45,654 nt of DNA from Bacteroidota bacterium (lineage in GTDB: Bacteria > Bacteroidota > Bacteroidia > NS11-12g > UBA955). Every line of letters starts with the position of its first letter. Position 1 is the first letter of the stretch. Location: NCBI GenBank assembly GCA_005788145.1, contig SXYY01000127.1:1-45654 (forward strand). The letters run 5' to 3'. Both the position numbers and the translations under genes were made by a program. Of the stretch, positions 7,951-45,654 are shown in pieces. The notes under the pieces were generated by a model. The model had not been told where the DNA came from. It did no database searches and saw nothing but the letters and a program-made list of their open reading frames with translations.

Positions 7951-7994
7951 TTTTCAGGTATCGGCGTTCCCATTTTTTCCGTAAATTGCACTCA

Positions 7995-24822: not shown

Positions 24823-25524
24823 CTATTTACGTGCTCTCATCAGCCCTGAACTTTTTGGGAAATACGCAATCAGGGGCTGTAAATTTGACAATATCTGAGA
24901 ATATGGCGCTGTGCGCAGCTCGTCATAGGTATTGGCACCTGTAAGCACACCCACGTTCCAGGCGCAACCTGCTGAGAAACCTTCATACAAATCGCTAACT
25001 GTATCACCAACCTTCATGACCAAGTGGGAATATTCCACCCCTGAGCGCTTCATGGCCAATCGAATCATATCGGGTTGTGGTCTACCAGCATCCACTTCAT
25101 CGCTGCCGATGTAGCCATGGATCATTTTTTCCAATGCCAAGTTTCTCACGATGACGTCGGCAACTTGTCGATTAAAACCAGTATTCAAGTATACTTTGGC
25201 CCCACTATTTCTGATGGCTTCGAACAATTCTGCCGCATAAGGCATTAGTTCGATACTGCCTTTGACGCCATACTTCTCAATCAACTGTTGGTTAAAAAAC
25301 CCCACCAACTCATCAATAATATCTGCCGTAACCATAGTTTTGTTCAATGAACAAAGCTGTTCAAAAGCCGTTTTCTTGGGAATACCCATGACTTTGTTGG
25401 CTTGATCCATGGAGATATTAATATTCAACTTCCATTTCATGGCATCAATTGCTGCTTGCTGCACCAATCCAAAATCATTGACAGTTGTACCTGCCATGTC
25501 CATTACTACCAATTGGGGTTTCAT
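24823..25524 (-). CDS. Phosphonatase-like HAD hydrolase (PhnX-like, TIGR03351-type)
   Basis: Preferred start MKPQLVV (ORF opens at 25545). Motif I is DxAGT ('VVMDMAGTTVND') rather than DxDxT. Motif III has Arg ('DAGRPQPDMI') rather than Lys. Motif IV is 'VGDTVSD'. There is a cap-domain Lys in 'MGIPKK'. These are the distinguishing features of phosphonoacetaldehyde hydrolase and its closest relatives. Confidence 0.75.
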   Translation of the reverse strand: MKPQLVVMDMAGTTVNDFGLVQQAAIDAMKWKLNINISMDQANKVMGIPKKTAFEQLCSLNKTMVTADIIDELVGFFNQQLIEKYGVKGSIELMPYAAELFEAIRNSGAKVYLNTGFNRQVADVIVRNLALEKMIHGYIGSDEVDAGRPQPDMIRLAMKRSGVEYSHLVMKVGDTVSDLYEGFSAGCAWNVGVLTGANTYDELRTAPYSQILSNLQPLIAYFPKSSGLMRARK

Positions 25525-25647
25525 GAACGCAAAGGAACCGTGCAATTAAGAATTTAAAATTAAATCTCTGTTAAATACCACAATCACGAAAAAGGGTAAC
25601 ATCGATGTAACAATCAAGCCAAATCGTGTTGGGTAATTGCGGCCTTT

Positions 25648-26595
25648 ATGAAGATTGCTATTTTGTATGCAGAAAGTCGGTTTACACCTTGGAGAGAAAA
25701 CATCGACACCAACACAGTGATTACACTTCACAAAGCATTACCCAAAAGTGCAAACGGGACCATCATTCACATGACAAAACCCAATGAAGATTTGGTCAAA
25801 TTATTATCTAAATTCGACTTCGTAATCAACTTGTGTTACGGGTACTACCATTTTTCACAAGCCGATGTAGCTGAGTGGCTAGACCAAAACAACATCAAAC
25901 ATTTGAGCAGCGGAGGCACTCAACAACAAATGGCTCAAGACAAATTATATGTAGAGACTATACTTGGCGAATACAAAATCGCAGTTCCCAAGTCCATTCA
26001 ACATTTATCGGAAATATGCCAAGGATTGTACATATCCAAACCCAGAAAAGGGGGCTGTCACCGCGGCATTGAAATTACCGATGCACATACCGCGAGGACA
26101 AAGTTTGATTTGAATTGTACCGAGGACAAACTCACACAGCCCTATCTGATCGGACGTGAATTTAGCGTTGCTATTATTCCCAATGAAGGAGGTACAGGTT
26201 TTGAAACACTCCCACCTTTGGAGGTGATTCCTTACCCCAAAAGAACCATTTACCTGGCGGGGCAATCGCATGGTAAAACAAGAAAAAACTACCACCCCCT
26301 ACTTAGTTTTACCGAAAAAGACAACATCATCGATGCATGTCTAACCGCCCACAAAGCGCTGGGATTAACATTTTACTCAAGGGTAGATGTGCGATTGGTT
26401 GGCGATACCGCTTTCGTCTTGGATGTCAATACCATGCCCAACATGCATCCAACAAAAAGTATGTTGCCGGGACTTTTGAAAACCCACAAAATTGGCATGC
26501 GTGAATTTGTAAAGCGTATAATTTCTATGGGACAGCATATTTACAACACCAACATGGAACCCAAGTTAGCGGAATATATACAAACCACATCGTAA
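25648..26595 (+). CDS. ATP-grasp ligase, D-alanine--D-alanine-ligase-like
   Basis: 315 aa. Ddl-like elements are 'YISKPRKGGCHRGIEI' (compare KP..GSS.G), 'REFSVAII' and the Mg/ATP site 'SRVDVRL...FVLDVNTMPNM' (compare RVDF...EvNT.PG). It lacks the usual Ddl N-terminal motif, so it is divergent. Confidence 0.65.
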   Translation: MKIAILYAESRFTPWRENIDTNTVITLHKALPKSANGTIIHMTKPNEDLVKLLSKFDFVINLCYGYYHFSQADVAEWLDQNNIKHLSSGGTQQQMAQDKLYVETILGEYKIAVPKSIQHLSEICQGLYISKPRKGGCHRGIEITDAHTARTKFDLNCTEDKLTQPYLIGREFSVAIIPNEGGTGFETLPPLEVIPYPKRTIYLAGQSHGKTRKNYHPLLSFTEKDNIIDACLTAHKALGLTFYSRVDVRLVGDTAFVLDVNTMPNMHPTKSMLPGLLKTHKIGMREFVKRIISMGQHIYNTNMEPKLAEYIQTTS

Positions 26596-26666
26596 TGTTC
26601 AGGCAAACAGAATAACAACATTTGCGTAACCCTCAAAAAATGAGCACGTTGTATTATTGAGGATTA

Positions 26667-27410
26667 ATGCGTATGTCAAACACACTACCAAAGCTTGTTA
26701 TATTGCCCCTGGTAGATTTGATAATCGACGAAGCAAAGCCCCTTATTTCTATATACCAGAACACCCTAAAGGCCGAACACATAGCATCTGACGAATGGGC
26801 CTTGGGCGAATTGATAGGCAAGCCAATCGGGGAGGTTGTAAATACGATGTGTCATCGCGGGACATCAAATTTTAGTGAAGAAAATATATCTCGACTGACC
26901 AATAACATCAGTGAGCAATTTACCGTTTTGTTAGGTTCTAAACCAAAAACACCTTACTCAAAAGAAGTGCATGTATTCTTAGATTCAATTAGGTCAAAAG
27001 GGTTAAAAATCGGTGTAACATCCTGGCTGAACAAAGAGACAACGGAAATCGCATTAAAGGCAGCAAATTTATGGGATCGCATCGATGGCCATACGCATGG
27101 CAATTCCGGATATCATCATGGAACATCTCCGGATATTATATTCACCTTGATGCGACAAATTGGCATAGATAATAGCGATCACGTAGCCAATGTGGGCAAA
27201 ACCAAATATGATGTATTGCGTGGTTATCACGCCCAATGTAAATGGAATATTCTAATTGCGAGCGACAAAGATAATACACGATGGAACGCATATCCCCACA
27301 CGGCAATCGTAGGATCCATCAAAGAAGCGGCGTCTGAAATTATGAGTAAATCGGTCGGGTCTGATTTTTTCGATATACTCAACAAAAAAAATCGCAAGAG
27401 GGGAAAATAA
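26667..27410 (+). CDS. HAD-fold protein paralogous to the PhnX-like hydrolase, with catalytic residues substituted (probable pseudo-enzyme or neofunctionalised)
   Basis: By-eye alignment to ORF 24823-25524. 'LVVMDMAGTTVND' aligns with 'LVILPLVDLIIDE', so the nucleophile Asp becomes Pro. 'AIRNSGAKVYLNTGFNR' aligns with 'SIRSKGLKIGVTSWLNK'. 'GRPQPDMIRLAMKRSGV' aligns with 'GTSPDIIFTLMRQIGI', so Arg becomes Thr. 'KVGDTVSDLYEGFSAGC' aligns with 'NVGKTKYDVLRGYHAQC', so Asp becomes Lys. Confidence 0.55.
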   Translation: MRMSNTLPKLVILPLVDLIIDEAKPLISIYQNTLKAEHIASDEWALGELIGKPIGEVVNTMCHRGTSNFSEENISRLTNNISEQFTVLLGSKPKTPYSKEVHVFLDSIRSKGLKIGVTSWLNKETTEIALKAANLWDRIDGHTHGNSGYHHGTSPDIIFTLMRQIGIDNSDHVANVGKTKYDVLRGYHAQCKWNILIASDKDNTRWNAYPHTAIVGSIKEAASEIMSKSVGSDFFDILNKKNRKRGK

Positions 27411-27477
27411 TCTTTACTTAATACCAAGCACCCATTAATCAAACAGTGAAACGATTAATTCGCCAAACAATTTCACT

Positions 27478-28323
27478 GTGAATTTACATACGCATACAGA
27501 CTTCTGCGACGGCAAAAGCTCGCCCGAAGACTTTGTAAAAAAGGCCATTTCTCTTGAGTTTAAATATTTGGGATTCAGCGCGCACGCGCCATTGCCTTTC
27601 CTTTGTGATTGGAGTTTACCCACAGAGCGTTTGGATTCATACTGTGTTGAAATTGCACGCTTGAAAGCGCACTATCAAAAAAAACTACAGATACTTCACG
27701 GCTTTGAAATCGACTTCCTCGAAGGAATGGGTTTTCCATGCTTAACGGAAGATGCCGTTTGCGGGGCTGATTTCTTTATTTGTAGCATACACTTTTTAAA
27801 AACGCCACAATCCGCGATCACATCGCCAAAGTTTGCTGAGATAGACGGAAACTATGCGCAATTTATGTTGGCGATGAAAAGTCATCAATATTCGCTGAAA
27901 AAAATCCTCAGCAACTACCTAAACGCAACCGAACAAATGATCCTCACGCCCCTTGTTGCTGGCATGGTGAAGATCATCGGACATGTTGACAAAATCGTAT
28001 TAAACGCAACGCAACTACCTGAATTTGAAGGACTTAGCGAGTGGTTTTACGAAGAACTATTCAATATTTTAATTCAGCACAGGGGTCATTATCATTCAAT
28101 TGAAATCAACACCAGGGCATTATATAAAAAAGGATTATCACAGCCATATCCGCGCTACAACCTTTTGGAGATGTTGGCAAACCAAAATGTTCCGTTAATC
28201 ATCAACAGCGATGCACACCACCCATCCGAATTAAATGCAGGTTACAAAGAAACCGTTGAAAGGCTAGAATCGCTCACCACAATCAATATCAAAAATCTCC
28301 ATTACAAATGGTTAAAGAAATAA
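27478..28323 (+). CDS. PHP-domain metal-dependent phosphoesterase (HisJ / histidinol-phosphatase family)
   Basis: 281 aa with a GTG start. PHP His/Asp motifs are 'NLHTHTDFCDG', 'GFSAHAP', 'CSIHFL', 'IIGHVDKI', 'IEINT' and 'INSDAHHPSEL'. Confidence 0.75.
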   Translation: MNLHTHTDFCDGKSSPEDFVKKAISLEFKYLGFSAHAPLPFLCDWSLPTERLDSYCVEIARLKAHYQKKLQILHGFEIDFLEGMGFPCLTEDAVCGADFFICSIHFLKTPQSAITSPKFAEIDGNYAQFMLAMKSHQYSLKKILSNYLNATEQMILTPLVAGMVKIIGHVDKIVLNATQLPEFEGLSEWFYEELFNILIQHRGHYHSIEINTRALYKKGLSQPYPRYNLLEMLANQNVPLIINSDAHHPSELNAGYKETVERLESLTTINIKNLHYKWLKK

Positions 28324-29591
28324 ACCAACGGCAACAACTAGTTACTGCAACACTTATTGGATTAACCACATTTTGCCTGTACACTTTTATGTATGCAGTG
28401 CGAAAACCCTTTTCCGCGTTGACATATAACAACATTTTGGTATGGGGTATCAGTGTAAAAATTTGGATGGTACTGTTCCAGCTTCTCGGTTATACCATGA
28501 GCAAATTCTTTGGTATTCGACTACTGGGAAAAATCAAACTTGAGGATCGAAGTATTTACCTCATTTGTATATTGTCACTTGCAACAGTCCCGCTTTTTTT
28601 ACTTCAGCATTTACCCGCCCAATTGTGGCCTGTTTTAATGTTTTTCAACGGATTCCCATTGGGATTGGTTTGGGGAATCGTTTTTTCTTACGTAGAGGGT
28701 AGAAAATATACAGAACTCATTGGGGCGATGTTGGCTTGTACGTTTGTCTTTTCTTCGGGTTGGGTAAAATCGTTTGGTCTTTACTTACAAACTGCCTTGG
28801 AACTAAATATTACCCAAGTACCTTTTTTTACTGCCCTGATTGCACTTATCGCAGCCGCCATAGTGGTATTTGTTTTAGAAAAACTGCCGCCACCCAACAC
28901 TGAGGATAAATTGCTAAGAAACGATAGAAAGCCACTTAATCCTATTGAACAACGACGATTCCTTCAGCTTCATGGTTCCATAATAATTCCCTTTGTCATT
29001 ATTTACGGTATCTTCACCATCATGCGAGACTTCCGCGACAATTTCTCCGCAGAAATGCTGACAGAAAGTGGCGCATATTCTGGCGATGTCTTCATCAATA
29101 TGGAACTGAAAGTATCACTGGTCTTACTATGCCTAGTGCCTTTATTTTCTTGGATTAAAAACCACCGAGTTGCGTTAAATATCACCACCCTATCAATCAT
29201 TGTGGGCATATTCACGGGTCTCACAGCCACATTTTTATTCTTGCAGCACCAAATTTCAATAAAGGGATTGTTAATGTTAACGGGTGGCGGATTTTACTTA
29301 GGATACATTTTAATTAACATCAGCGTAATGGATAGAATCGTCGGTTTTTCAGGAGAATCTGGAAATTCAGGATTCTTGATTTACATCGCCGATAGCGTGG
29401 GTTACTTGTTCTCCTTAATCATTAGCTCATTTGCACTACTCAACAAAATCGACTCGATGAAGTGGACCTCTCTATACATTGATTTAGTCATGGTGGGTTC
29501 TGTTTTCATTGTTATACTCGCGATTACCATACCATATCAACTTAAAAAAACGAAACAATCACACAATGATGCAGAAATTATCAAAGCCTAG
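28308..29591 (+). CDS. 12-TM MFS-like permease (resembles the DUF5690 family seen next to phosphonatase-like genes)
   Basis: 427 aa. I count 6+6 hydrophobic segments split by a charged central loop 'PPPNTEDKLLRNDRKPLNPIEQRR'. It overlaps the PHP gene by 16 nt and the FAD-oxidoreductase gene by 26 nt. The family name is from memory and unverified. Confidence 0.6.
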   Translation: MVKEINQRQQLVTATLIGLTTFCLYTFMYAVRKPFSALTYNNILVWGISVKIWMVLFQLLGYTMSKFFGIRLLGKIKLEDRSIYLICILSLATVPLFLLQHLPAQLWPVLMFFNGFPLGLVWGIVFSYVEGRKYTELIGAMLACTFVFSSGWVKSFGLYLQTALELNITQVPFFTALIALIAAAIVVFVLEKLPPPNTEDKLLRNDRKPLNPIEQRRFLQLHGSIIIPFVIIYGIFTIMRDFRDNFSAEMLTESGAYSGDVFINMELKVSLVLLCLVPLFSWIKNHRVALNITTLSIIVGIFTGLTATFLFLQHQISIKGLLMLTGGGFYLGYILINISVMDRIVGFSGESGNSGFLIYIADSVGYLFSLIISSFALLNKIDSMKWTSLYIDLVMVGSVFIVILAITIPYQLKKTKQSHNDAEIIKA

Positions 29592-31234: not shown

Positions 31235-31244
31235 TTGATTTATT

Positions 31245-31277: not shown

Positions 31278-31309
31278 TACTAACTATTAAACCAATTCAA
31301 CTACTTTGA

Positions 31310-32896: not shown

Positions 32897-32923
32897 GTTT
32901 TTATTTTTTAGAAATTATTTAAA

Positions 32924-38483: not shown

Positions 38484-40917
38484 TATCCATGGCCTTCACC
38501 CAAGGGGCCTGCCTCAACGTGGGCAATTTGGCTCGCTCTCCCTTCACGTACTTCCACAATATTTCATTCATGAGTTGTTCGTTGGCACGATCTTCACGCG
38601 ACAAATCCAATTTCTCGCTCATGCGCATCAAATACGAGGTGGCTTTGGGATTGGAGGCAGAATTCACCTCGTTCAAGTCAACCTCAGCGGCTACAAAATT
38701 GAATCCTTTCCGATTCACCGTATCTGAAAAACATCGCCACATGGGCTCGGCGCCCGCATCGTACTGACTCATAGGCGGCATACCCAAAATCAACTCCATG
38801 GTACGCAGCATCGAACTCGTGCTGTACTTGGTGTGATCCACAAACCCTCTTTTCACCATGCCCCCGGCAACATAGGCCGTGGAGCGATGCGCATCGATGT
38901 GATCCGCGCCGTTCTGTGCATCGTCTTCCAAAATGAATACCACACTCTCGCTCCAAATGGGCGACTTCGACAAATAATCTACAAACAATCCCACCGCCAA
39001 GTCGTTATCTGCCACATGGGCAAATGGCGTAGGCCTTCCCTTCCTAACCCCTTCGGTGTGGTCATTGATAAAACGCAAAGTATTCAGTGCAGGGACCTCA
39101 TTGATCGCCAACAAACTATCGAAATCGCGACGCCATTGGTGAAACCTAATGCTATCTTTCACGGACTCATCCCATGATGTAAAATATGTGCAATGCTGAT
39201 TTTCGAGTACTGGGATGTTGGGCTTGTAATCGTCAACAAACTCTCCATAGCTACGAAAAGAAATACCTGCGCGCTTGGCATAATCCCATAGATACCCTTT
39301 TTGTGGAGCCGCAACAGCAGATTGCCCTTCGTAAACATATTCGCCGCCCCTTCCACCGTAATACGTCGGCCATGTTTTTTCGGTGTAATCGTTGGCATAC
39401 GCGCCTGTGCTCCACATGTGTCCATCCGCACTCACTTCGGCATCCACGTAAAAATGATCAAGTAAGACAAACTCCTCACACAATTTATGTTGATTTGGGG
39501 TAATGTCTCTCCCAAATAATAACAAAGACGTATCACCATCGCCGCCAGCCAAATCAGACAATACTTGGTCGTAGGTTCGATTTTCTTTGATAATATAAAA
39601 CACATGTTTGATGGGCGATGAATCCCCCACGCGGTTCGGTATGGGATTTTCTTCGGGAATATCCAAGATGCGGCCCTGAGCGCTAGCGAGGGGAGTATTG
39701 GCATAGACCTTCGCAGTATTTTCTGCGAGCAATTGTATTTCTATGACTTGCTCGATATTCATTAGTTGCAAACCACCCCGAAACAAACTACCGATGTATT
39801 CTACCTTATCCACATACTCCACTTTGATAGTGGACCCTTGGCCTTGCTGATACACTGTCCGGGTCTTTTTCTGCGCGGGATTTGGACCTTTCGGATTTGC
39901 TTGTGATCCAAACCCCTTGCCATTGGCAACCACCAGTTGATCGCCCCAAACCGCTACCTGGGTGGGATACCATCCGGTAGGTACGAACCCTTTGAGTCTA
40001 TATTTTCCGTAGGTTTTCACATCAAATACCGCCAATGCATTGTTATCGGCATTGGCCGCCAAAAGAATCCCTTTGTTCTGCATCAAACACAGTGCATTGG
40101 TACCGCTACCCGTTAGACTCGTTCCAAACAACCCCGCCGCAAGAACCTCCACCGCGTTGCCTTTTTTCAGATGAATAACATGTACAGAATTATCGTCGGA
40201 ACAAGCCACAAACAATCGCTTCCCTTTGGTATCGTATATCATTTCATTGGGATTATCACCCACCACAATTTTGGGTTCCCACTGATTTAATCGCGCATTG
40301 AAAACACCCACAGAAGCATCGCCCCAGTGACTTACGAAAACTTTATCGCCGCCATCGCCTGTAACACCATAGCCTGCAGAAGGCAATTTCCATTTTTGAC
40401 GCTGACTCACTTCGTTCAAAGAAATTTGATAGAAGCTGGAATCTTCCTTGGTCGCCACATACAATATCCGACGTTTCTCATCTATGTACAATCCCGTGGG
40501 CGAGATGCGCACAGGCCACTGATCTCCCAAATGAATGGAATCGATGTACTTCAACTTGCCGTTGGAAAACTGGTATCTGCCAATCACATTCAAATTGGCG
40601 CCCGTTGAAAACAATTGATTGGTTAAGCCGTCAAACGCCAAACCATAAAAAGTGGCTTTCACCGGTAAACTGTCTGTCATTAATCGCTGCTGCATATCAA
40701 AAACCATCAGCGAATGATCGCTTTGGCCAGCATTGGCGATGATCAAATAGCGATTCGATGGATCCAAAATCATATGCATTGGCAAATCACCCAGAGCATA
40801 TTTATCTCCCCCAGGAGTCAAACGCCAACCGTTGGGCAAATCAGTTTGTGCCTTTAAAGGCGAAAACATTGATGCTAGCAAGACCAGCACTCCGAGCAGT
40901 TTATTTGTGATTTTCAT
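38476..40917 (-). CDS. Secreted fusion protein: N-terminal YncE/YVTN-like beta-propeller + C-terminal phosphoesterase-family (PLC/AcpA, PF04185-type) domain
   Basis: Start MKITNKLLGVLVLLASMFSPLKAQ, which is a signal peptide (ORF opens at 40947). The propeller half has repeats such as 'LYVATKEDSSFYQI', 'LFVACSDDNSVHVI' and 'ILLAANADNNALAVFD'. The phosphoesterase half has 'IKHVFYIIKENRTYDQV', 'DAEVSADGHMWS' and 'ILEDDAQNGADHIDAHRS'. Confidence 0.8.
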   Translation of the reverse strand: MKITNKLLGVLVLLASMFSPLKAQTDLPNGWRLTPGGDKYALGDLPMHMILDPSNRYLIIANAGQSDHSLMVFDMQQRLMTDSLPVKATFYGLAFDGLTNQLFSTGANLNVIGRYQFSNGKLKYIDSIHLGDQWPVRISPTGLYIDEKRRILYVATKEDSSFYQISLNEVSQRQKWKLPSAGYGVTGDGGDKVFVSHWGDASVGVFNARLNQWEPKIVVGDNPNEMIYDTKGKRLFVACSDDNSVHVIHLKKGNAVEVLAAGLFGTSLTGSGTNALCLMQNKGILLAANADNNALAVFDVKTYGKYRLKGFVPTGWYPTQVAVWGDQLVVANGKGFGSQANPKGPNPAQKKTRTVYQQGQGSTIKVEYVDKVEYIGSLFRGGLQLMNIEQVIEIQLLAENTAKVYANTPLASAQGRILDIPEENPIPNRVGDSSPIKHVFYIIKENRTYDQVLSDLAGGDGDTSLLLFGRDITPNQHKLCEEFVLLDHFYVDAEVSADGHMWSTGAYANDYTEKTWPTYYGGRGGEYVYEGQSAVAAPQKGYLWDYAKRAGISFRSYGEFVDDYKPNIPVLENQHCTYFTSWDESVKDSIRFHQWRRDFDSLLAINEVPALNTLRFINDHTEGVRKGRPTPFAHVADNDLAVGLFVDYLSKSPIWSESVVFILEDDAQNGADHIDAHRSTAYVAGGMVKRGFVDHTKYSTSSMLRTMELILGMPPMSQYDAGAEPMWRCFSDTVNRKGFNFVAAEVDLNEVNSASNPKATSYLMRMSEKLDLSREDRANEQLMNEILWKYVKGERAKLPTLRQAPWVKAMDID

Positions 40918-43681
40918 AAAAGTCTTTTCTTTGTTGGTTCTCATCATCCATTAGATCCGGCATCTTCAACTCACGCCAAGGGATGCTGCGATTGTATTTT
41001 TTCAGGGCAACAGCAGGATCAAACACCCGCAAATCGCTAGGCTCCAAAGTATAGGGCCTAAAATCGGCTACTGGCGTGAAATAATCAGATAGGTCTGAAG
41101 CAGTGATGTCGAAATGATTCACCCCAGGAATACCCATTGTATTGTAAATCAACTTAATGATCGACCCAAAATTGGCATGCGTGTGCGATACATAATTGCG
41201 TTTCACATAAGGCCCTGCCATCAGCAAAATGCTTCGATGCGCATCGATGTGATCCACCCCACCCTGTGGATCATCTTCCGTAACAATCACCAATGTGCTC
41301 TTCCAATAGGGTGTGTGGGATAAAAAATGCAACATCCTGCCCAAGGCCAAATCGTTGTCTGCCACATAACTGTGAACGAATGGATAACCATCGGCCGGTC
41401 GCGGCTTTGAAGTATGGTCGTTTGGTAATTGGATGGTAATTAAGTTGGGCATGGAATCAGTACCCATCAGCCACTTTTGGGTAAATTCTGTTTCAAACTG
41501 TTCTACCCTAAATTGATCCGGTATGCTGGTATTGTAACCCGCGTAATTTCTCGATGTATATGAATAAATGGCCGATGGCATAGGGAAGGCAACGGCAATA
41601 CCGGTACCATTCAACGTATCGTACCAATCTTCCCTCACACCTTGATATTCATTGGCTTCTCCAAAATTGTAAATCGTTTTTCCCGATCGCTGCACAGCTT
41701 CCCATAAACCACCAATCTGATTATAATCTTCTGGATCCATCGCCCCAGTGGTCTTTGGCATCCGTCGGCCCGGCGCAGGAGATAACACCCGAAAATCACC
41801 GTCGTTGGCCGCATTGGTCTCCACATATTCATTGGGCATGGTACCCATCATCCAATGATGACCGTGAATGGAAGCATCAGAATCGCAATAAAAATTGTCG
41901 CTGTAAGAAAAACTCTTCGCCAATTTGTGGTGGTTCGGAGTGATTTTCAATTGCTTCATGCGCGCCTCTATCTCCTCTTTTTTCAGGGTATCCACCCCAT
42001 AATCCCAGAGTTGATCGTTGTGAATCATTTGCAATTGACCCTTGATGGTGTATTCGCAGTTCACGCCGAAACGACTCAAACTGGAATCGCCATTGGCCTC
42101 GGTCAATTGTCCAAAAACTTCATCGTATGTGCGATTTTCCTTGGTAATATAAACGATGTGTTTGATGGGTGAATTTGGGCCAAAAAATTGACCATGTATG
42201 GCTGTTGCTGGTGAGGTTTGATAAGTATAATCAAGCACGAGTTGTTTCGAAACAGCCAATTCTTCGTTTGAAAGCATTTTTACGCGCTGCAAACTACCCA
42301 ACTGAATATCACCTATATAGGTTCCTTGTATCGGGGCCTTGAAATTTTTACCGCCATTGGGACCGGCACCCAATCCGCGGGCCGAAGTGATCAACACAGC
42401 ACCAGAACTGGGCAAACATTTTACACGCGTAGCACCCCAACCCGCTGGAATCATCCCCAAGTTCTTCCCCGATTTTGCATCCAAAACTGCCACCGCATTG
42501 AAACCCAACAAAGCCACATACAAACGATTGGCTTTTCTATCAAGATCAATTCCATAAGGCATATATCCCCTAGATTGATCCAAAAAAGTTTCTGTTTTGA
42601 TGGGCCAAGTACCTTTCAATCGGTTCGATTTCAAATCAATCACGGCTATATCATCGCTGCCTGCTTGCGACACATAAGCATATTTTTCATTGCACACGAT
42701 ACTATTGGGATGCGCCCCACCCACAATTTCGGCATCCTCCAAAAATTCACCGATGCGTTTCCCCGTTTTGATTTTCGAAACCACCGAATTGGTGCGGGTA
42801 TCTATCACCCAAACACTCATCGATTGGTCATCGTTGGGATCGCCCAGCCCGGGAATAAACCGTCCTTCAAACTCAACACCCTCGCGAGATTCTTTGCTAT
42901 GAGCACCGTATGGAGGAAAATGCAACAAAAAGGAATCTTTCGTTTTTTCATTCACCCCTGGAACCACCGGATAGGCGTACATACCTACGTTGGCAACAAA
43001 TAATTTATGCTGTTTCGGGGCGATGGCAATGCCAAATGGAATGCGACCCGTAGGAATACTCGCCTTAATTTGATGGGTCTTCAATGAAAAGCGATGCAAC
43101 TGAAACCAAGCGCGATCCAACACCCATAAATCATCGTTCACTTCATCCAAAACCAAATCCGTGGCAAACGCTTCCTTATTTGATTCAGGATGTGCCTGGT
43201 TTAAATCAAAACTATCAACCAACGATTTTGCAACCACATCAAAAACCCATACCTTGCCTTTGTCGCCCCCGCTCAAAAACACCCGACGGTTATCGCTCGC
43301 AAAACAAGCCCCAATGAAGGAGGCATTTTTAATCACATCAGGGTTTTTCCCATCATAAGAAGGAAAACGTGAAACTTGAAGAGGACTGCTCATCAAATCC
43401 ACCACCGATATGGCGTTGCTATGCAATACAACCGCTGTTTTTTCATCGTTAGAAATGGCTAAACCATAGGGAGCACGCGTAATCAACTTCAACTCACCCG
43501 CTGGCTTTACAAACCTTCCGCTTGGTAAAACAGAAATGCCATCCTCCTTGATTTCTGCAAATTTATCTTTTCCAGGAACCTCTACATGTTGAGCAACCAA
43601 GATCGATTGAATGAACAAATAAACAACAACAGCAATGGGGCGTTTGAATCTGAAAAAAGACATAAGCGAACATATATTCAT
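40901..43681 (-). CDS. Secreted fusion protein, paralogue of 38476-40917: beta-propeller + phosphoesterase-family domain
   Basis: 926 aa. An alternative start at 43663 gives the signal 'MSFFRFKRPIAVVVYLFIQSILVAQ'. Motifs parallel to the paralogue are 'IKHIVYITKENRTYDEV', 'DSDASIHGHHWM' and 'VTEDDPQGGVDHIDAHRS'. Propeller repeats include 'VFLSGGDKGKVWVFD', 'LFVANVGMYAY' and 'LYVALLGFNAVAVLD'. Confidence 0.8.
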   Translation of the reverse strand: MNICSLMSFFRFKRPIAVVVYLFIQSILVAQHVEVPGKDKFAEIKEDGISVLPSGRFVKPAGELKLITRAPYGLAISNDEKTAVVLHSNAISVVDLMSSPLQVSRFPSYDGKNPDVIKNASFIGACFASDNRRVFLSGGDKGKVWVFDVVAKSLVDSFDLNQAHPESNKEAFATDLVLDEVNDDLWVLDRAWFQLHRFSLKTHQIKASIPTGRIPFGIAIAPKQHKLFVANVGMYAYPVVPGVNEKTKDSFLLHFPPYGAHSKESREGVEFEGRFIPGLGDPNDDQSMSVWVIDTRTNSVVSKIKTGKRIGEFLEDAEIVGGAHPNSIVCNEKYAYVSQAGSDDIAVIDLKSNRLKGTWPIKTETFLDQSRGYMPYGIDLDRKANRLYVALLGFNAVAVLDAKSGKNLGMIPAGWGATRVKCLPSSGAVLITSARGLGAGPNGGKNFKAPIQGTYIGDIQLGSLQRVKMLSNEELAVSKQLVLDYTYQTSPATAIHGQFFGPNSPIKHIVYITKENRTYDEVFGQLTEANGDSSLSRFGVNCEYTIKGQLQMIHNDQLWDYGVDTLKKEEIEARMKQLKITPNHHKLAKSFSYSDNFYCDSDASIHGHHWMMGTMPNEYVETNAANDGDFRVLSPAPGRRMPKTTGAMDPEDYNQIGGLWEAVQRSGKTIYNFGEANEYQGVREDWYDTLNGTGIAVAFPMPSAIYSYTSRNYAGYNTSIPDQFRVEQFETEFTQKWLMGTDSMPNLITIQLPNDHTSKPRPADGYPFVHSYVADNDLALGRMLHFLSHTPYWKSTLVIVTEDDPQGGVDHIDAHRSILLMAGPYVKRNYVSHTHANFGSIIKLIYNTMGIPGVNHFDITASDLSDYFTPVADFRPYTLEPSDLRVFDPAVALKKYNRSIPWRELKMPDLMDDENQQRKDFYENHK

Positions 43682-44103
43682 TAGGTTGGCAGGAGATTAT
43701 GAAGTTGTGAAGGAATCAATAATCCCTCGATGCTAAAATCGTTAGGCCTTAATCATTTAACAATAAAATACTCATCTAGGTGTATCAATCGACACTGAAT
43801 TTTGTAAAAAAATGTCACGATCAAAATCTGAGGTTCGTCTGAATGGTTGGCTTCAAACGATATGGCCAAGTCAACTTCCACCACTGAGTGTGCGGGAAAT
43901 TCATTGGTTAATTTTCACATTCCCAATTCCGTTTTGGTCCATTTTATTCATGCTATTTATAGTGGTAAAATTCATAAAAAGCCGCATTATTTGCAATCAC
44001 AAACAAGGTTAAATCCCGTTTTGCAAAGCACTTTGTTAATAATTCATTAACAATTAAACCATCTCCGTTTTGTTATTTCGCTTACTACTAACAACCTATA
44101 GAA

Positions 44104-45654
44104 ATGAAAAAACTCCTATCAACCGTCATTTGCGCCATCTTCCTATCAGGGAGCGCATTGGCACAGGTCACCACGGCTTTCTTGAGCGGTGTTGTGACCA
44201 ATGGAAACACTGCTGTTGAGAACGCAACCATCAAAGCGGTCTTGACAACAACCAACGCATCCTACACAGCAAACTCTCGTTCCGGGGGCGTGTACGACAT
44301 CTCTAACTTAAATGCCGGTGGGCCATACACCGTTAGCATTTCTGCACCTGGCATGAAGGACATCGTATTTACCGATGTATTCTTGACATTGGGTGAAAAC
44401 TTCAAACTAGACGCCGACTTCACCACCGAGAAAATTGGTGGCGTGGTTGTGAGTGTTTCTCGTAATGCCACCAAAACCGGTAGCAACCTGAACATCAACA
44501 GTCGTACCTTGAACACCCTGCCTACCATCTCTCGTTCTATCAACGACTTCACCCGCTTAACTCCCCAAGCCGGTAGCGGTAGCAGTTTCAACGGTCGCGA
44601 CGGTCGTTTCAACAACATCACCATCGACGGTGCCAACTTCAACAACAACTTTGGTTTGAGCGATAAAAACTTGCCTGGTGGCGATGCACAGCCCATTTCT
44701 CTCGATGCGATCGAAGCCGTTCAAGTGAACATCTCTCCTTTCGATGTGCGCCAATCAAACTTCACCGGTGCCGGTATTAACGCCATTACCAAGAGCGGCT
44801 CAAATACCACAACCGCATCCGTTTACACTTTGATGCGCAACGAATCTTTCAACGGCACCAAAGTAGATACTTTTGATTTGGGTGAGCAAAAGAAAACCTC
44901 TTCAAACATCTTAGGCTTTCGCCTAGGCGGCGCCTTGGTAAAAGACAAGATTTTCTACTTCGTCAACTACGAAAACGAAAAAACATCACTTCCGGGACTG
45001 CAGTGGAAAGCTTCTCGTCCAGGCACAGGCCAAAGTGCTTCTGATCCAAATTTGTCGCGCACATTGGCGTCGGACTTGGATTTGGTTCGCACCCATTTGA
45101 AAGAAAAATACGGTTACGAAACCGGCGACTACGAAAACTTGGGCAATTTCAATACTGCCAACCAAAAATTCTTGGCGCGCTTAGATTGGAACATTTCTGA
45201 AAAGCACAAATTCAGTTTGCGTTACAATTCAGTGCACAATACAAACGACCAAGTATTGAACGGCACGTCTGCCCCTAACCCACGTTCTTCTTCAAACCGT
45301 TGGTCGAACAACTCGATGAGCTTTGCCAATTCAAACTACTCTTTCGACAATAAAGTATGGTCAGTAGCTGGGGAATTGAAGAGCAACCTCAGCAAAAAGG
45401 TAAGCAATCAATTGTTGTTGACCTACACAAGCATCACCGATGCCCGTGGAACCAACAGTACTCCTTTCCCCTTCGTGGATATCAAAAAAGGTGGCGACAA
45501 CTACATCAGCTTCGGCTATGAGTTATTCAGCTACAACAACAAAGTAAATAACAACACATTGTCGTTCATCGACAACATCACTTACAACCTAAACAAACAC
45601 ACCATCACCGCGGGTGTAGCATACGATCAAATGTATGTGGGTAACGCTTTCCAA
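44104..45654 (+). CDS. TonB-dependent receptor with N-terminal carboxypeptidase-regulatory-like domain (Oar-like); 5' part only, continues past the right edge
   Basis: Not in the ORF track because there is no stop. My translation from ATG 44104 is MKKLLSTVICAIFLSGSALAQVTTAFLSGVVTNGNTAVENATIKAVLTTTNASYTANSRSGGVYDISNLNAGGPYTVSISAPGMKD...SRSINDFTRLTPQAGSGSSFNGRDGRFNNITIDGANFNNNFGL...ISLDAIEAVQVNISPFDVRQSNFTGAGINAITKSG... This gives 517 codons, in frame to the window end. Confidence 0.8.
   Translation, partial: MKKLLSTVICAIFLSGSALAQVTTAFLSGVVTNGNTAVENATIKAVLTTTNASYTANSRSGGVYDISNLNAGGPYTVSISAPGMKDIVFTDVFLTLGENFKLDADFTTEKIGGVVVSVSRNATKTGSNLNINSRTLNTLPTISRSINDFTRLTPQAGSGSSFNGRDGRFNNITIDGANFNNNFGLSDKNLPGGDAQPISLDAIEAVQVNISPFDVRQSNFTGAGINAITKSGSNTTTASVYTLMRNESFNGTKVDTFDLGEQKKTSSNILGFRLGGALVKDKIFYFVNYENEKTSLPGLQWKASRPGTGQSASDPNLSRTLASDLDLVRTHLKEKYGYETGDYENLGNFNTANQKFLARLDWNISEKHKFSLRYNSVHNTNDQVLNGTSAPNPRSSSNRWSNNSMSFANSNYSFDNKVWSVAGELKSNLSKKVSNQLLLTYTSITDARGTNSTPFPFVDIKKGGDNYISFGYELFSYNNKVNNNTLSFIDNITYNLNKHTITAGVAYDQMYVGNAFQ

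What the first reader, a model, noticed from the sequence alone, without database searches (positions are those of the whole stretch)
24823..45654. Non-glycan SusCD locus: a ~21-kb phosphonate/organophosphorus acquisition island
From 24.8 kb to the right edge, every gene fits phosphorus scavenging. The genes are a PhnX-like HAD hydrolase (DxAGT motif, Arg in motif III), a DAO-family FAD oxidoreductase, a 12-TM permease, a PhnZ-like HD oxygenase and a PHP phosphoesterase. There is also a SusC/SusD pair and a second TonB-dependent receptor translationally coupled to two signal-peptide-bearing beta-propeller+PLC/AcpA-type phosphoesterase fusions. A third, Oar-like receptor sits at the edge. The locus has none of the glycoside hydrolases, lyases, HTCS or ECF/anti-sigma genes that define classical PULs. 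It also has none of the canonical phosphonate genes (PhnCDE, C-P lyase, PhnW, PhnY, PepM). My inference is an outer-membrane-to-cytoplasm route for phosphonate- or phosphate-ester-bearing macromolecules such as phosphonolipids or phosphonoglycans. PLC-type cleavage of the ester bond of a phosphonolipid would release a free 2-aminoethylphosphonate-type head group. The permease would import that head group and the cassette would mineralise it. I recall SusCD-like pairs induced by phosphate starvation being reported in Flavobacterium (as 'Pus' systems, from memory). I do not know of a direct physical link between a SusCD pair and C-P bond-cleaving enzymes.
Basis: partly seen in the sequence, partly recalled or inferred. 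Interest (0 to 1): 0.78.

Follow-up and report, generated by a model that had tools for sequence, protein, structure and literature searches.

The report
SusCD-linked aminophosphonate scavenging locus
This is a real gene cluster, conserved across Bacteroidota, that joins outer-membrane SusCD/TonB importers and periplasmic phosphoesterases to an inner-membrane permease and carbon-phosphorus-bond-cleaving enzymes; the same kind of cluster has already been reported in Flavobacterium as a 'Pus' locus, so it is a good example, not a discovery.

Summary
HMMs place the key enzymes in the predicted families: PbfD/TIGR03364 above its cut-off; PhnX-like HAD and PhnZ-like HD as best hits with catalytic residues intact; PF04185 in both propeller fusions; SusD-like_2/SusC; a DUF5690 permease.

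The neighbourhood is not chance. Among 51 Bacteroidota loci with full flanks around a PbfD homologue, 49 carry DUF5690, 46 the HAD, 40 the HD and 38 an orthologous SusCD pair, with a median gap of 183 bp. They are often one operon. In some lineages the TBDR plus propeller-phosphoesterase module replaces or joins SusCD.

The best model has five steps:
- TonB-powered outer-membrane uptake of an aminophosphonate or its head-group ester.
- Periplasmic ester cleavage.
- Import by an MFS-fold DUF5690 permease.
- PbfD plus PhnX-like hydrolysis of 2-AEP and N-methyl-AEP.
- PhnZ-like oxidation of 1-hydroxy-AEP.

The novelty claim fails. Lidbury et al. (2019 preprint, 2020) and Connolly et al. (2026) already report PusCD pairs co-localised with phosphonatases (phnX, dao). 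The PbfD-PhnX-PhnZ cluster type is also published.

The ligand, Pi control and transporter function remain untested. This is a new member of a known kind, of moderate interest.

The parts
24823..25545 (-). PhnX-like HAD hydrolase (probable phosphonoacetaldehyde hydrolase); the likely true start is the ATG at about 25524
   Evidence: The best NCBIfam hit is TIGR03351 (154 bits, below cut-off), followed by TIGR01422. Alignment to B. cereus PhnX 1RQL (E 1.5e-16) conserves Asp12 (DMAGT), Met49, the Schiff-base Lys53, Arg160, Asp186 and Asp190. Cys22, His56 and Tyr128 are replaced. A homologue is present in 46 of 51 full-flank related loci.
25648..26595 (+). Ddl-like ATP-grasp ligase; lineage-specific accessory of unknown role
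   Evidence: It hits PF07478 and PF02655 and gives weak D-Ala-D-Ala ligase hits. It occurs only in the closest relatives L001, L002 and L004 and, independently, in L083 between the HD and the HAD.
26667..27410 (+). Degenerate second HAD (probable pseudo-enzyme)
   Evidence: It gives weak hits to TIGR03351 (37 bits) and HAD_2. The sequence reads LPLVD where the nucleophile motif DxAGT should be, and it lacks the motif III Arg and the first motif IV Asp. It is only 67% identical in L001/L002, where neighbouring genes are 84-98% identical.
27478..28323 (+). Cytoplasmic PHP-domain phosphatase, HisJ family
   Evidence: It scores 128.7 bits against TIGR01856, above the 90.2 cut-off, and hits PF02811. 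It matches the PDB histidinol phosphatase 3DCP at E 1e-12. It is present in only 6 of 80 related loci.
28308..29591 (+). DUF5690 inner-membrane permease with an MFS fold; candidate aminophosphonate importer
   Evidence: It scores 342 bits against PF18943. No PDB relative was found by sequence profile. The AF2 model has pLDDT 87 and pTM 0.87. Its best folds are G6PT1/SLC37 organophosphate:Pi antiporters, with GlpT also matched (TM 0.60-0.68). It lies between the HAD and PbfD in 49 of 51 full-flank loci.
29566..30702 (+). PbfD-type FAD amine oxidase (AEP / N-methyl-AEP to phosphonoacetaldehyde)
   Evidence: It scores 352.4 bits against TIGR03364, above the 285.1 cut-off. PbfD enzymes carry the TIGR03364 annotation and were characterised biochemically (PMC10590968). 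The ORF overlaps the 3' end of the DUF5690 gene.
30683..31234 (-). PhnZ/TmpB-family HD-domain diiron oxygenase (C-P cleavage of a 1-hydroxy-phosphonate)
   Evidence: It scores 172.5 bits against TIGR03276, below the cut-off. It matches PhnZ 4MLM and TmpB 6NPA at E ~5e-28. The Fe ligands H34, H58, D59, H80, H104 and D161, plus E27, H62 and K108, are all conserved. It is present in 40 of 51 full-flank loci.
31310..32896 (-). SusD-like_2 surface lipoprotein (lid of the SusC transporter)
   Evidence: It scores 224.9 bits against PF12771. It has a lipobox...VMNGC. Orthologues are 45-98% identical in 51 related loci. Three of three independent SusD-anchored contexts carry the phosphonate cassette.
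32924..36001 (-). SusC/RagA-type TonB-dependent transporter lacking the usual N-terminal CarboxypepD_reg extension
   Evidence: It scores 350 bits against TIGR04056, against a cut-off of 368, with a Plug domain. The N-terminal domain is absent in the window clade and present in orthologues of other families.
36357..38483 (-). Second, non-SusC TonB-dependent receptor (TBDR2)
   Evidence: It has Plug and TonB_dep_Rec_b-barrel domains. In L012, L015 and L078 it forms the operon PropPE-PropPE-TBDR2-(HD)-HAD-DUF5690-PbfD (the HD is absent in L012). L082, L086 and L088 also carry SusCD with the same genes; L088 lacks the HD and in L086 the HAD-PbfD-DUF5690 genes lie on the opposite strand.
38476..40947 (-). 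Secreted (Sec signal, probably periplasmic) YVTN beta-propeller + PF04185 phosphoesterase, ~805-aa subtype
   Evidence: It scores 36.5 bits against PF04185. The family profile hits the YVTN propeller 1L0Q (E 3e-45) and AcpA 2D1G (E 1e-9). The motifs KENRTYD, S-x-x-G-H, NDH and EDDxQxGxDHxDAHR are invariant. The AF2 model of the C-terminal domain matches AcpA, GPE ethanolaminephosphodiesterase, PlcN and NPC (E ~1e-9).
40901..43681 (-). Secreted YVTN beta-propeller + PF04185 phosphoesterase, ~905-927-aa subtype
   Evidence: It scores 30.8 bits against PF04185 over the whole profile, and hits the TIGR02276 repeats. It shares the same invariant motifs as the shorter paralogue. It is paired with that paralogue in L012, L015, L078, L082, L086 and L088.
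44104..45654 (+). Oar-like TonB-dependent receptor (5' part; runs off the window); membership of the system is uncertain
   Evidence: It hits PF13620 and PF25183. The full-length gene (1077-1078 aa) is conserved at the same position in the close relatives L084 and L085. There it is followed by a T9SS Big_5 (+ choice_anch_I in L084) protein and, in L085, by ppk1-ppx.

Best explanation
The island is a Bacteroidota phosphate-utilisation ('Pus'-type) locus specialised for 2-aminoethylphosphonate-type compounds. The proposed route has six steps.

1. (Inferred) The SusD-like lipoprotein and SusC, and in parallel the second TonB-dependent receptor, capture a small aminophosphonate solute at the cell surface and import it with TonB energy. 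The solute would be free AEP, N-methyl-AEP or 1-hydroxy-AEP, or a water-soluble head-group ester such as a glycerol or sugar ester of AEP.
2. (Inferred) In the periplasm, the two Sec-exported propeller-PF04185 phosphoesterases cleave the C-O-P ester and free the aminophosphonate. Other lineages have a canonical PLC or an alkaline-phosphatase-superfamily enzyme in this role.
3. (Inferred from context and fold) The MFS-fold DUF5690 permease carries the aminophosphonate across the inner membrane. It would take the place of the PhnCDE, AepXVW or AepP transporters that the locus lacks.
4. (Family function shown elsewhere; membership shown here) PbfD oxidatively deaminates AEP or N-methyl-AEP to phosphonoacetaldehyde. 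The PhnX-like HAD then hydrolyses this to acetaldehyde and phosphate.
5. (Family function shown elsewhere; catalytic residues shown here) The PhnZ-like HD oxygenase cleaves 1-hydroxy-2-AEP to glycine and phosphate. No PhnY* is needed, because the hydroxylated compound occurs naturally.
6. The ATP-grasp, the dead HAD and the PHP phosphatase are lineage-specific additions of unknown role.

Expression is probably tied to phosphorus status, or to the substrate in lineages that carry an XRE-cupin regulator.
For: Catalytic residues are conserved:
- PhnX-like HAD: nucleophile Asp, Schiff-base Lys, Arg and motif IV Asps.
- HD: all six Fe ligands plus Glu27, His62 and Lys108. A Y-G-E motif is conserved in more than 90% of HD orthologues.
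- PF04185 domain: metal-binding motifs are invariant across two subfamilies that are only 26% identical.

Conservation of the neighbourhood:
- The 80 best PbfD loci are nearly all labelled Bacteroidota.
- In 51 loci with at least 8 kb on both sides, the counts are DUF5690 49, HAD 46, HD 40, SusCD 38, SusC or TBDR2 40, and a secreted phosphoesterase 38. The median gap between SusCD and the cassette is 183 bp.
- Single co-directional operons SusC-SusD-(AP-superfamily)-HD-HAD-DUF5690-PbfD occur in L054, L014, L024 and L081.
- SusC-SusD-PropPE-PropPE-TBDR2-HD-HAD-DUF5690-PbfD occurs as one co-directional operon in L082; L086 (Flavihumibacter stibioxidans) has the same genes, but HAD-PbfD-DUF5690 lie on the opposite strand.
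- Roseivirga and some Saprospiraceae carry a different SusCD family (29-34% identity) next to the same cassette. This points to independent recruitment.

DUF5690 model: MFS fold, with best hits to the organophosphate:Pi antiporters G6PT and SLC37.

PropPE C-terminal model: matches AcpA, glycerophosphoethanolamine ethanolaminephosphodiesterase, PlcN and plant NPC.

Phosphorus context in relatives: PhoBR-like two-component genes, PlcP-like Metallophos plus GT lipid-remodelling pairs, PhoX plus MauG, Na/Pi cotransporter, PHO4 and ppk1/ppx are adjacent.

Literature:
- PusCD clusters with phnX and dao were detected in Pi-deplete Flavobacterium exoproteomes (10.1101/719427; PMC8115612).
- PusCD1/2 import phospholipid head groups, with periplasmic PLC (10.64898/2026.09.03.749221).
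- PbfD makes phosphonoacetaldehyde and clusters with phnX and phnZ (PMC10590968).
Against: - No experiment links this SusCD clade, TBDR2, DUF5690 or the propeller-phosphoesterases to any phosphonate.
- The HAD and the HD both score below their curated NCBIfam cut-offs. The HAD also replaces Cys22, His56 and Tyr128 of PhnX.
- The PF04185 nucleophile could not be placed with certainty. MAFFT gaps the S-x-x-G-H segment against canonical PLC, and AF2 confidence there is below 50.
- AEP is small enough to cross porins, so a TonB importer is not strictly required.
- Propeller-phosphoesterases also occur far from any phosphonate gene (L087, L089).
- The window has no regulator gene, and Pho-box-like repeats are not enriched in it (6 observed versus 7.3 expected).
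- The fold match of DUF5690 to the organophosphate antiporter family is only marginally better than its match to other MFS proteins.
Confidence: 0.62

Rival explanations
1. The locus holds co-regulated but separate modules. SusCD, TBDR2 and the propeller-phosphoesterases scavenge ordinary phosphate esters such as phospholipid head groups (e.g. glycerophosphoethanolamine) and nucleic-acid fragments. The HAD-DUF5690-PbfD-HD cassette independently mineralises free aminophosphonates that enter through porins. On this reading, adjacency reflects a shared Pho-type regulon and not one substrate route.
For: - The propeller-phosphoesterase family is very large (at least 7801 hits) and is also found as an orphan.
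- Related loci sit among generic Pho genes: PhoX, PlcP-like, Na/Pi and PHO4.
- The best structural neighbours of the esterase act on phosphate esters.
- The characterised PusCD1/2 import phosphate esters.
- About a quarter of PbfD loci have no SusCD within 8-10 kb.
Against: - The SusCD genes sit inside the same co-directional operon as the C-P enzymes, with gaps of tens to hundreds of bp, in several orders.
- The SusD clade is unusually conserved (45-98% identity), and all three SusD-anchored look-ups returned the cassette.
- Two unrelated SusCD families have been recruited to the same cassette.
Confidence: 0.22
2. Surface or extracellular PLC-type enzymes cleave intact phosphonolipids or phosphonoglycans, or SusCD imports such macromolecules as a PUL imports glycans. 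The free head group is then taken up.
For: - PF04185 enzymes, including canonical PlcN-like PLC, recur next to the cassette.
- The SusCD architecture is the one used for polymers.
Against: - Both propeller fusions have type-I signal peptides, with no lipoprotein Cys and no T9SS C-terminal domain. They are therefore not predicted to be surface-exposed.
- The Pedobacter PLC carries a Tat-type leader (MDNRREFIKK...), typical of a periplasmic or exported soluble enzyme.
- No surface glycan-binding protein, CAZyme or lipase is conserved in the loci.
- The characterised Pus1 system places its PLC in the periplasm and imports head groups.
Confidence: 0.12
3. The locus is mainly a nitrogen or carbon catabolic system. 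It would be induced by the aminophosphonate substrate itself and be insensitive to Pi, like AepXVW/AepP-PhnWAY in Proteobacteria, and so would not be a phosphate-starvation system.
For: - An XRE-HTH plus cupin (small-molecule-sensing) regulator lies between the HD and the HAD in 25 of 51 full-flank loci. In Sphingobacteriaceae a conserved double palindrome lies upstream of SusC.
- The window has no Pho-box enrichment.
- Pi-insensitive AEP catabolism is documented (PMC8316502).
Against: - PhoBR-like genes and Pho-regulon neighbours are present in other lineages.
- Pho-box-like TTHAMH-N5-TTHAM repeats are enriched upstream of core genes across loci: 60 observed against 13.3 +/- 4.5 in shuffles. 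This was a post-hoc pattern and the loci are related to one another.
- The Flavobacterium phnX/dao PusCD clusters were found in Pi-deplete exoproteomes.
Confidence: 0.2
4. The adjacency of unrelated genes is due to chance.
For: None beyond the mosaic GC profile (0.40-0.43 at 25-37 kb against 0.45-0.49 on the flanks).
Against: The same genes recur together across Sphingobacteriaceae, Chitinophagaceae, Saprospiraceae, Cyclobacteriaceae, Roseivirga and Flavobacteriales MAGs.
Confidence: 0.01

Closest known systems
Pus (phosphate utilisation system) loci of Flavobacterium, especially the pusCD4/5/6 clusters with phnX and dao (Lidbury et al., bioRxiv 10.1101/719427; ISME J 2020, PMC8115612)
   Same: Both have a SusCD-like pair next to phosphoesterases, a phosphonoacetaldehyde-hydrolase-type HAD, a DAO-family oxidoreductase and an inner-membrane transporter. 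Both lack CAZymes. They are proposed to import organophosphorus across the outer membrane.
   Different: Sequence orthology between the window's SusD and PusD4/5/6 could not be tested here. The window adds a second TBDR with two propeller-PF04185 enzymes, a PhnZ-like HD oxygenase, an ATP-grasp, a dead HAD and a PHP. It has no FecR/ECF or PhoBR gene. The window's organism is not a Flavobacterium: its closest relatives are unclassified freshwater Bacteroidota/Flavobacteriales MAGs.
PusCD1/Pus1 of Flavobacterium johnsoniae (Connolly et al. 2026, bioRxiv 10.64898/2026.09.03.749221)
   Same: Both follow the same logic: a TonB-dependent SusCD-like importer, a PLC-type enzyme predicted to be periplasmic, and a phospholipid head group as cargo. 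PusCD1 is the only such system with genetics and a cryo-EM structure.
   Different: The PusCD1 ligand is inositol phosphate or glycerophosphoinositol, bound by Trp stacking. PusD1 is a PF07980/PF14322-type SusD, while the window protein is SusD-like_2 (PF12771). The Pus1 PLC is a PI-PLC/calcineurin type, not PF04185. Pus1 has no C-P-cleaving enzymes.
PbfD-PhnX(-PhnZ) hydrolytic AEP pathway (Zangelmi et al. 2023, PMC10590968; Mariniblastus fucicola, Sphingopyxis)
   Same: Both have a TIGR03364 oxidase, a PhnX-type hydrolase and a PhnZ homologue in one cluster, with no PhnW.
   Different: Here the HAD belongs to the TIGR03351-like branch and lacks Cys22, His56 and Tyr128 of PhnX. The cluster is fused to outer-membrane import machinery and a DUF5690 permease. 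Neither of these is described in that work.
PhnY*/PhnZ oxidative pathway and TmpA/TmpB
   Same: The HD-domain mixed-valent diiron oxygenase has all of its metal ligands.
   Different: There is no partner 2-oxoglutarate dioxygenase (PhnY*/TmpA) in the window or recurrently in the related loci. The N-terminal substrate motif is Y-G-E instead of Y-x-G-E.
AepP / GlpT / G6PT organophosphate:Pi antiporter MFS transporters
   Same: Both have a 12-helix MFS fold, and the best structural matches of the DUF5690 model are G6PT/SLC37 and GlpT. Like AepP, the gene sits next to AEP catabolic genes.
   Different: There is no detectable sequence similarity to any solved MFS protein. DUF5690 is a separate Pfam family with no characterised member.
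PF04185 enzymes: AcpA, PlcH/PlcN, plant NPC, Streptomyces glycerophosphoethanolamine ethanolaminephosphodiesterase
   Same: Both share the ENR(S/T)(F/Y)D and DDxxxGxDH metal motifs and the overall fold.
   Different: The window enzymes are N-terminally fused to a 7-bladed YVTN/YncE propeller. The nucleophile segment reads S-x-x-G-H instead of T-x-P-N-R, and its alignment is uncertain. PGAP already names the family 'bifunctional YncE family protein/alkaline phosphatase family protein', but no member has been characterised.

Membership tests
Pus-type (PusCD) organophosphorus utilisation locus | SusC/SusD-like TBDT-lipoprotein pair | tested here: met
   SusD scores 225 bits against PF12771 and has a lipobox. 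SusC scores 350 bits against TIGR04056, marginally below its cut-off, and has a Plug domain.
Pus-type (PusCD) organophosphorus utilisation locus | Co-localised with phosphatases, phosphodiesterases or phosphonatases and a Po transporter instead of CAZymes | tested here: met
   Searches show no CAZyme in the island. The same pattern recurs in related loci.
Pus-type (PusCD) organophosphorus utilisation locus | Induced by phosphate depletion (PhoBR-dependent) | not testable with these tools
   The evidence is indirect only: PhoBR-like genes and Pho-regulon neighbours in relatives, and Pho-box-like repeats enriched across loci but not in the window.
Pus-type (PusCD) organophosphorus utilisation locus | Required for growth on an organophosphorus source | not testable with these tools
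   This needs genetics in a cultured carrier.
Classical polysaccharide utilisation locus (PUL) | SusCD pair plus glycoside hydrolases or lyases and an HTCS or ECF/anti-sigma regulator | tested here: not met
   No CAZyme or such regulator was found among the island ORFs, and no recurrent CAZyme cluster was found in the 80 loci.
PbfD (TIGR03364) aminophosphonate oxidase | Score above the curated family cut-off | tested here: met
   It scores 352.4 bits against a cut-off of 285.1, matching the full-length model.
PbfD (TIGR03364) aminophosphonate oxidase | Clusters with phnX or phnYA | tested here: met
   A PhnX-like HAD lies within 5 kb in the window and in 46 of 51 full-flank loci.
Phosphonoacetaldehyde hydrolase PhnX (TIGR01422) / PhnX-like (TIGR03351) | Score above the curated cut-off | tested here: not met
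   It scores 100.6 bits against TIGR01422 (cut-off 220) and 154.4 bits against TIGR03351 (cut-off 218.9).
Phosphonoacetaldehyde hydrolase PhnX (TIGR01422) / PhnX-like (TIGR03351) | DxAGT nucleophile motif, cap-domain Schiff-base Lys53, Arg160, motif IV Asps | tested here: met
   These residues align to 1RQL. Cys22, His56 and Tyr128 are not conserved.
PhnZ-type HD diiron oxygenase (TIGR03276) | Score above the curated cut-off | tested here: not met
   It scores 172.5 bits against a cut-off of 214.6. This is still the best-scoring family.
PhnZ-type HD diiron oxygenase (TIGR03276) | Six Fe ligands (H34, H58, D59, H80, H104, D161) and substrate residues E27, H62, K108 | tested here: met
   All are conserved in alignments to 4MLM, 4N71 and 6NPA.
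PhnY*/PhnZ two-step oxidative AEP pathway | Partner 2-oxoglutarate dioxygenase PhnY* | tested here: not met
   No such ORF was found in the window, and none is recurrent in related loci.
PF04185 phosphoesterase (PLC/AcpA) | Pfam gathering score and metal-binding motifs | tested here: met
   The two proteins score 36.5 and 30.8 bits against a gathering score of 23. The ENRTYD and EDDxQxGxDH motifs are invariant. The fold matches AcpA, PlcN and NPC.
PF04185 phosphoesterase (PLC/AcpA) | Ser/Thr nucleophile in the T-x-P-N-R/H segment | tested here: inconclusive
   An invariant S-x-x-G-H is the candidate. However, MAFFT gaps this segment against PLC, and the AF2 model is of low confidence there.
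Major facilitator superfamily, organophosphate:Pi antiporter-like | 12-TM MFS fold | tested here: met
   The AF2 model has pLDDT 87. Foldseek gives TM 0.60-0.68 to G6PT1, SLC37A2 and GlpT, and also to other MFS proteins.
Major facilitator superfamily, organophosphate:Pi antiporter-like | Sequence membership of the OPA family or AepP | tested here: not met
   The family profile finds no PDB sequence even at E<=10. Only some homologues hit PF07690.

The most novel reading that the evidence does not exclude
This SusD-like_2/SusC clade, together with the alternative TBDR2, would be the first TonB-dependent outer-membrane importers dedicated to aminophosphonates or their head-group esters. DUF5690 would be a previously unrecognised family of inner-membrane aminophosphonate transporters that replaces PhnCDE, AepXVW and AepP throughout Bacteroidota. 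The propeller-PF04185 fusions would be periplasmic phosphonate-ester (glycero-AEP-type) hydrolases. Together these would define how a whole phylum gains access to phosphonolipid-derived phosphorus.
Probability: 0.4. Interest if true: 0.6.

Novelty: new member of a known kind. Interest (0 to 1): 0.42.

Why it matters
Phosphonates are a substantial share of organic phosphorus in soils, fresh water and the sea. Bacteroidota generally lack the ABC importers (PhnCDE, AepXVW) that other phyla use for them.

If this locus works as proposed, it would explain how Bacteroidota take up and mineralise aminophosphonates. It would also give a function to DUF5690 and to a family of thousands of propeller-phosphoesterases, and it would extend SusCD biology beyond glycans and inositol phosphates.

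The comparative data name cultured carriers in which the model can be tested directly: Flavihumibacter stibioxidans, Cnuella takakiae, Pedobacter and Mucilaginibacter species. However, the basic idea, a PusCD pair next to a phosphonatase, is already in print. The gain is therefore refinement and breadth, not discovery.

Tried and rejected
- **Sigma-70 promoter and terminator scan**. Counts equal the shuffled expectation. The scan is uninformative because Bacteroidota promoters differ from the sigma-70 consensus.
- **Pho-box-like repeat TTHAMH-N5-TTHAM in the window**. There were 6 matches against 7.3 expected, so no support. The enrichment across related loci came from a pattern chosen after seeing the sequences, and many loci are closely related. 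I treat it as weak.
- **Sequence-profile search of DUF5690 against the PDB**. Nothing was found; the fold had to come from AF2 plus Foldseek.
- **phmmer of a single propeller-phosphoesterase against the PDB**. Only the propeller matched. The AcpA link needed a family profile.
- **MAFFT alignment with canonical PLC to place the nucleophile**. The result was ambiguous. The AF2 model of the C-terminal domain has pLDDT below 50 over residues 74-118 and 247-257, exactly the catalytic loops. No structural confirmation of the active site was therefore possible.
- **Rfam scan and tRNA scan of the window.** Nothing was found, so there is no riboswitch or integration signature.
- **Search of the window for APsf, XRE-cupin, canonical PLC, PlcP-like, GT and PhoX homologues seen in relatives**. 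None was found.
- **Link between the propeller-phosphoesterase and the Pi-induced F. johnsoniae 'putative phosphatase' Fjoh_3414** (propeller InterPro signatures; no phosphatase activity in a heterologous test).
- **Biosynthetic reading of the locus.** Rejected: there is no PepM or Ppd.

Full report
**1. What is in the window**

ORF listing and translation and HMM scans split the window in two.

Positions 1-24.8 kb are housekeeping genes: NifU, RadA, carotenoid genes, murB, truB, pabB, uvrC, murI, an HAE3/MMPL transporter, rplI and rnpA.

From 24.8 kb onward the map is:

| Coordinates (strand) | Gene |
|---|---|
| 24823-25545 (-) | PhnX-like HAD |
| 25648-26595 (+) | Ddl-like ATP-grasp |
| 26667-27410 (+) | degenerate second HAD |
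| 27478-28323 (+) | HisJ-family PHP phosphatase |
| 28308-29591 (+) | DUF5690 permease |
| ~29566-30702 (+) | TIGR03364 FAD oxidase |
| 30683-31234 (-) | PhnZ-family HD protein |
| 31310-32896 (-) | SusD-like_2 lipoprotein |
| 32924-36001 (-) | SusC |
| 36357-38483 (-) | second TonB-dependent receptor (TBDR2) |
| 38476-40947 (-) and 40901-43681 (-) | two Sec-exported YVTN-propeller + PF04185 proteins |
| 44104 to window edge (+) | Oar-like receptor, divergent |

The apparent transcription units are:
- the HAD alone;
- ATP-grasp, HAD2, PHP, DUF5690 and PbfD, with gaps of 71 and 67 nt and overlaps of 16 and about 26 nt;
- Prop2, Prop1, TBDR2, then a 355-nt gap, SusC, SusD, a 75-nt gap, and the HD;
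- the Oar-like receptor.

No CAZyme, HTCS, ECF/anti-sigma, PhnCDE, C-P lyase, PhnW, PhnY or PepM was detected.

**2. Are the enzymes what they seem?**

*FAD oxidase.* It scores 352 bits against TIGR03364, above the cut-off of 285. Zangelmi et al. showed that the TIGR03364-annotated PbfD enzymes oxidise N-methyl-AEP to phosphonoacetaldehyde, and that PbfD2 also oxidises AEP. They also showed that pbfD clusters with phnX and phnZ in Mariniblastus fucicola and Sphingopyxis (PMC10590968).

*HAD.* It scores below the TIGR03351 and TIGR01422 cut-offs. Against B. cereus PhnX it keeps the Asp nucleophile in DMAGT, Met49, the Schiff-base Lys53, Arg160 and the motif IV aspartates. It loses Cys22, His56 and Tyr128.

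*HD protein.* It is also below its cut-off, but it keeps all six iron ligands and Glu27, His62 and Lys108 of PhnZ. Its orthologues share a Y-G-E variant of the Y-x-G-E motif.

*Propeller fusions.* They form two subfamilies, of about 805 aa and about 905-927 aa, that are 26% identical. The motifs KENRTYD, S-x-x-G-H, NDH and EDDxQxGxDHxDAHR are invariant in both. A family profile hits the YVTN propeller 1L0Q and AcpA 2D1G. An AF2 model of the C-terminal domain has pLDDT 74, with the catalytic loops of low confidence. Its best matches are AcpA, Streptomyces glycerophosphoethanolamine ethanolaminephosphodiesterase, PlcN, fungal and plant non-specific PLCs, and PlcH. The nucleophile assignment remains unproven.

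*DUF5690.* It has no sequence relative in the PDB. Its model is confident (pLDDT 87) and has an MFS fold. The best matches are the organophosphate:Pi antiporters G6PT1 and SLC37A2, and GlpT is also matched. Other MFS proteins score nearly as well.

**3. Is the neighbourhood conserved?**

A genome-collection scan with the PbfD protein returned 578 relatives. The 80 best are almost all Bacteroidota: Pedobacter, Mucilaginibacter, Chitinophagaceae, Saprospiraceae, Cyclobacteriaceae, Roseivirga and Flavobacteriales MAGs.

tblastn and ORF clustering gave these counts for the 51 loci with at least 8 kb on each side:

| Gene | Loci (of 51) |
|---|---|
| DUF5690 | 49 |
| HAD | 46 |
| HD | 40 |
| SusC + SusD | 38 |
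| SusC or TBDR2 | 40 |
| a secreted phosphoesterase | 38 |
| XRE-HTH + cupin regulator | 25 |

The secreted phosphoesterase is a propeller-PF04185 fusion, a canonical PLC or an AP-superfamily enzyme. The median distance between SusCD and the cassette is 183 bp.

Typical arrangements are:
- SusC-SusD-(AP-superfamily)-HD-HAD-DUF5690-PbfD as a single co-directional operon;
- PropPE-PropPE-TBDR2-(HD)-HAD-DUF5690-PbfD, where TBDR2 takes the place of SusCD (the HD is absent in L012);
- the Sphingobacteriaceae form, SusD-SusC-HD, then the XRE-cupin gene, then HAD-DUF5690-PbfD-PLC-TBDR.

I then started independently from SusD homologues. The search gave 2493 hits, and the top 120 are all at least 55% identical. 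All three contexts looked up contained the cassette. One of them (L082) holds every component of the window in a single operon.

Starting from the propeller-phosphoesterase, four of six contexts carried the cassette. These include two syntenic close relatives and the cultured Flavihumibacter stibioxidans. The other two were orphans.

Roseivirga and some Saprospiraceae have a different SusCD family (29-34% identity) next to the same cassette. This suggests independent recruitment.

Neighbours in relatives include PhoBR-like two-component genes, PlcP-like phosphoesterase plus glycosyltransferase pairs, PhoX with MauG, a Na/Pi cotransporter, PHO4 and ppk1/ppx. Chance adjacency is excluded.

**4. 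Mechanism**

The evidence best fits a Pus-type 'selfish' route:
1. TonB-powered import of a small aminophosphonate solute or head-group ester by SusCD and/or TBDR2.
2. Periplasmic hydrolysis of the C-O-P ester by the PF04185 enzymes.
3. Transfer across the inner membrane by DUF5690.
4. C-P cleavage by two complementary branches. PbfD plus the PhnX-like HAD handles AEP and N-methyl-AEP. The PhnZ-like oxygenase handles naturally occurring 1-hydroxy-AEP.

The status of each step differs. Steps 1 to 3 are inferred from operon structure, localisation signals and fold. The chemistry of step 4 is established for the families, and membership or catalytic competence is supported here.

The periplasmic placement of the esterases rests on type-I signal peptides with no lipobox and no T9SS domain. 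It also parallels the characterised Pus1 system.

Regulation is unresolved. The window has no regulator gene and no Pho-box enrichment. Relatives carry either PhoBR-like genes or an XRE-cupin regulator. A post-hoc Pho-box-like repeat is enriched upstream of core genes across loci.

**5. Comparison with what is known**

- The 2019 preprint lists phnX and dao in these neighbourhoods. It states that pusCD4/5/6 lie in operons with phosphonatases.
- Connolly et al. (2026) showed that PusCD1/2 import glycerophosphoinositol or inositol phosphate. They note that other pusCD-like pairs frequently co-localise with aminophosphonate-hydrolysing genes, whose binding mechanism 'should be explored'.
- The PbfD-PhnX-PhnZ cluster type is also published.

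The following points do not appear in the papers I could read:
- the phylum-wide conservation figures;
- the alternative TBDR2 + propeller-phosphoesterase module;
- the near-invariant HAD-DUF5690-PbfD core, which nominates DUF5690 as the transporter;
- the structural affinity of the esterase domain to a head-group phosphodiesterase.

**6. Verdict**

The finding is real, conserved and functionally coherent. It is a new member of a known kind, and none of its specific steps has been tested experimentally.
- Interest: 0.42.
- Confidence in the overall model: about 0.6.
- Probability that the outer-membrane transporters and DUF5690 are truly phosphonate-specific: about 0.4.

Noticed in passing
window 25648-28323: A three-gene insert lies between the HAD and DUF5690: a Ddl-like ATP-grasp ligase, a HAD paralogue lacking the nucleophile Asp, and a HisJ-family PHP phosphatase. 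A ligase is odd in a catabolic locus. The ATP-grasp recurs independently in L083 (HD-ATPgrasp-HAD-DUF5690-PbfD). The PHP might dephosphorylate an amino-alcohol phosphate such as phosphoethanolamine, but this is speculation.
   Followed up: partly
window 32924-36001 (N-terminus near 36001): The SusC of the window clade (L001-L010, 1011-1025 aa) lacks the ~75-aa N-terminal CarboxypepD_reg-like extension. That extension is present in orthologues from other families (1066-1116 aa) and is typical of SusC proteins.
   Followed up: partly
window 44104-45654; L084:3581-6814 and 1-3347; L085:1-7042: In close relatives, the Oar-like receptor at the window edge is a 1077-1078-aa gene followed by a T9SS-secreted Big_5 protein (which also carries a choice-of-anchor-I domain in L084). 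In L085, polyphosphate kinase 1 and Ppx-GppA come next. This suggests a larger phosphorus-related neighbourhood beyond the window.
   Followed up: partly
L026:6446-6477 and the equivalent sites in L028, L029, L032, L033, L035, L041, L047, L051, L074: A conserved ~55-nt element lies just upstream of SusC in Mucilaginibacter and Pedobacter loci. It has two perfect palindromes, TAAAC-N3-GTTTA, 20 nt apart. All of these loci carry the divergent XRE-HTH + cupin regulator, so the element is a candidate operator. It is absent from the window.
   Followed up: partly
L019, L042 (Roseivirga); L022, L045 (Saprospiraceae): A SusCD pair only 29-34% identical to the window's pair lies beside the HAD-DUF5690-PbfD cassette, directly after PbfD in the two Roseivirga loci. 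Two different SusCD lineages therefore appear to have been recruited to the same cassette.
   Followed up: partly
window 25000-37000 versus the flanks: G+C is 0.40-0.43 across the HAD-to-SusC part. It is 0.45-0.49 in the housekeeping flank and 0.48 across the TBDR2/propeller genes. The profile hints at a mosaic origin of the two modules.
   Followed up: no
window 30683-31234 and HD orthologues in 55 loci: The Bacteroidota HD oxygenases share Y-G-E, where PhnZ and TmpB have Y-x-G-E. This one-residue deletion falls in the segment that binds the substrate amino group in PhnZ and could mark a different substrate preference.
   Followed up: partly
L087:10001-12445, L089:10001-12412: Propeller-PF04185 proteins more than 50% identical to the window's occur as orphans, with no phosphonate or transporter genes nearby. 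The family has at least 7801 members and PGAP names it 'bifunctional YncE family protein/alkaline phosphatase family protein'. No member has been characterised.
   Followed up: partly
L088:17791-19161 (and cluster c18 in L024, L065): In a few loci, a class-III aminotransferase (Aminotran_3) lies within or next to the cassette (directly after PbfD in L088). It may be an alternative or extra deamination route.
   Followed up: no
window 2808-5548 and 7986-10049: A carotenoid gene set (phytoene synthase, desaturase, hydroxylase-like) and a 687-aa protein with a weak T9SS C-terminal sorting domain lie in the housekeeping half. They are unrelated to the finding.
   Followed up: no
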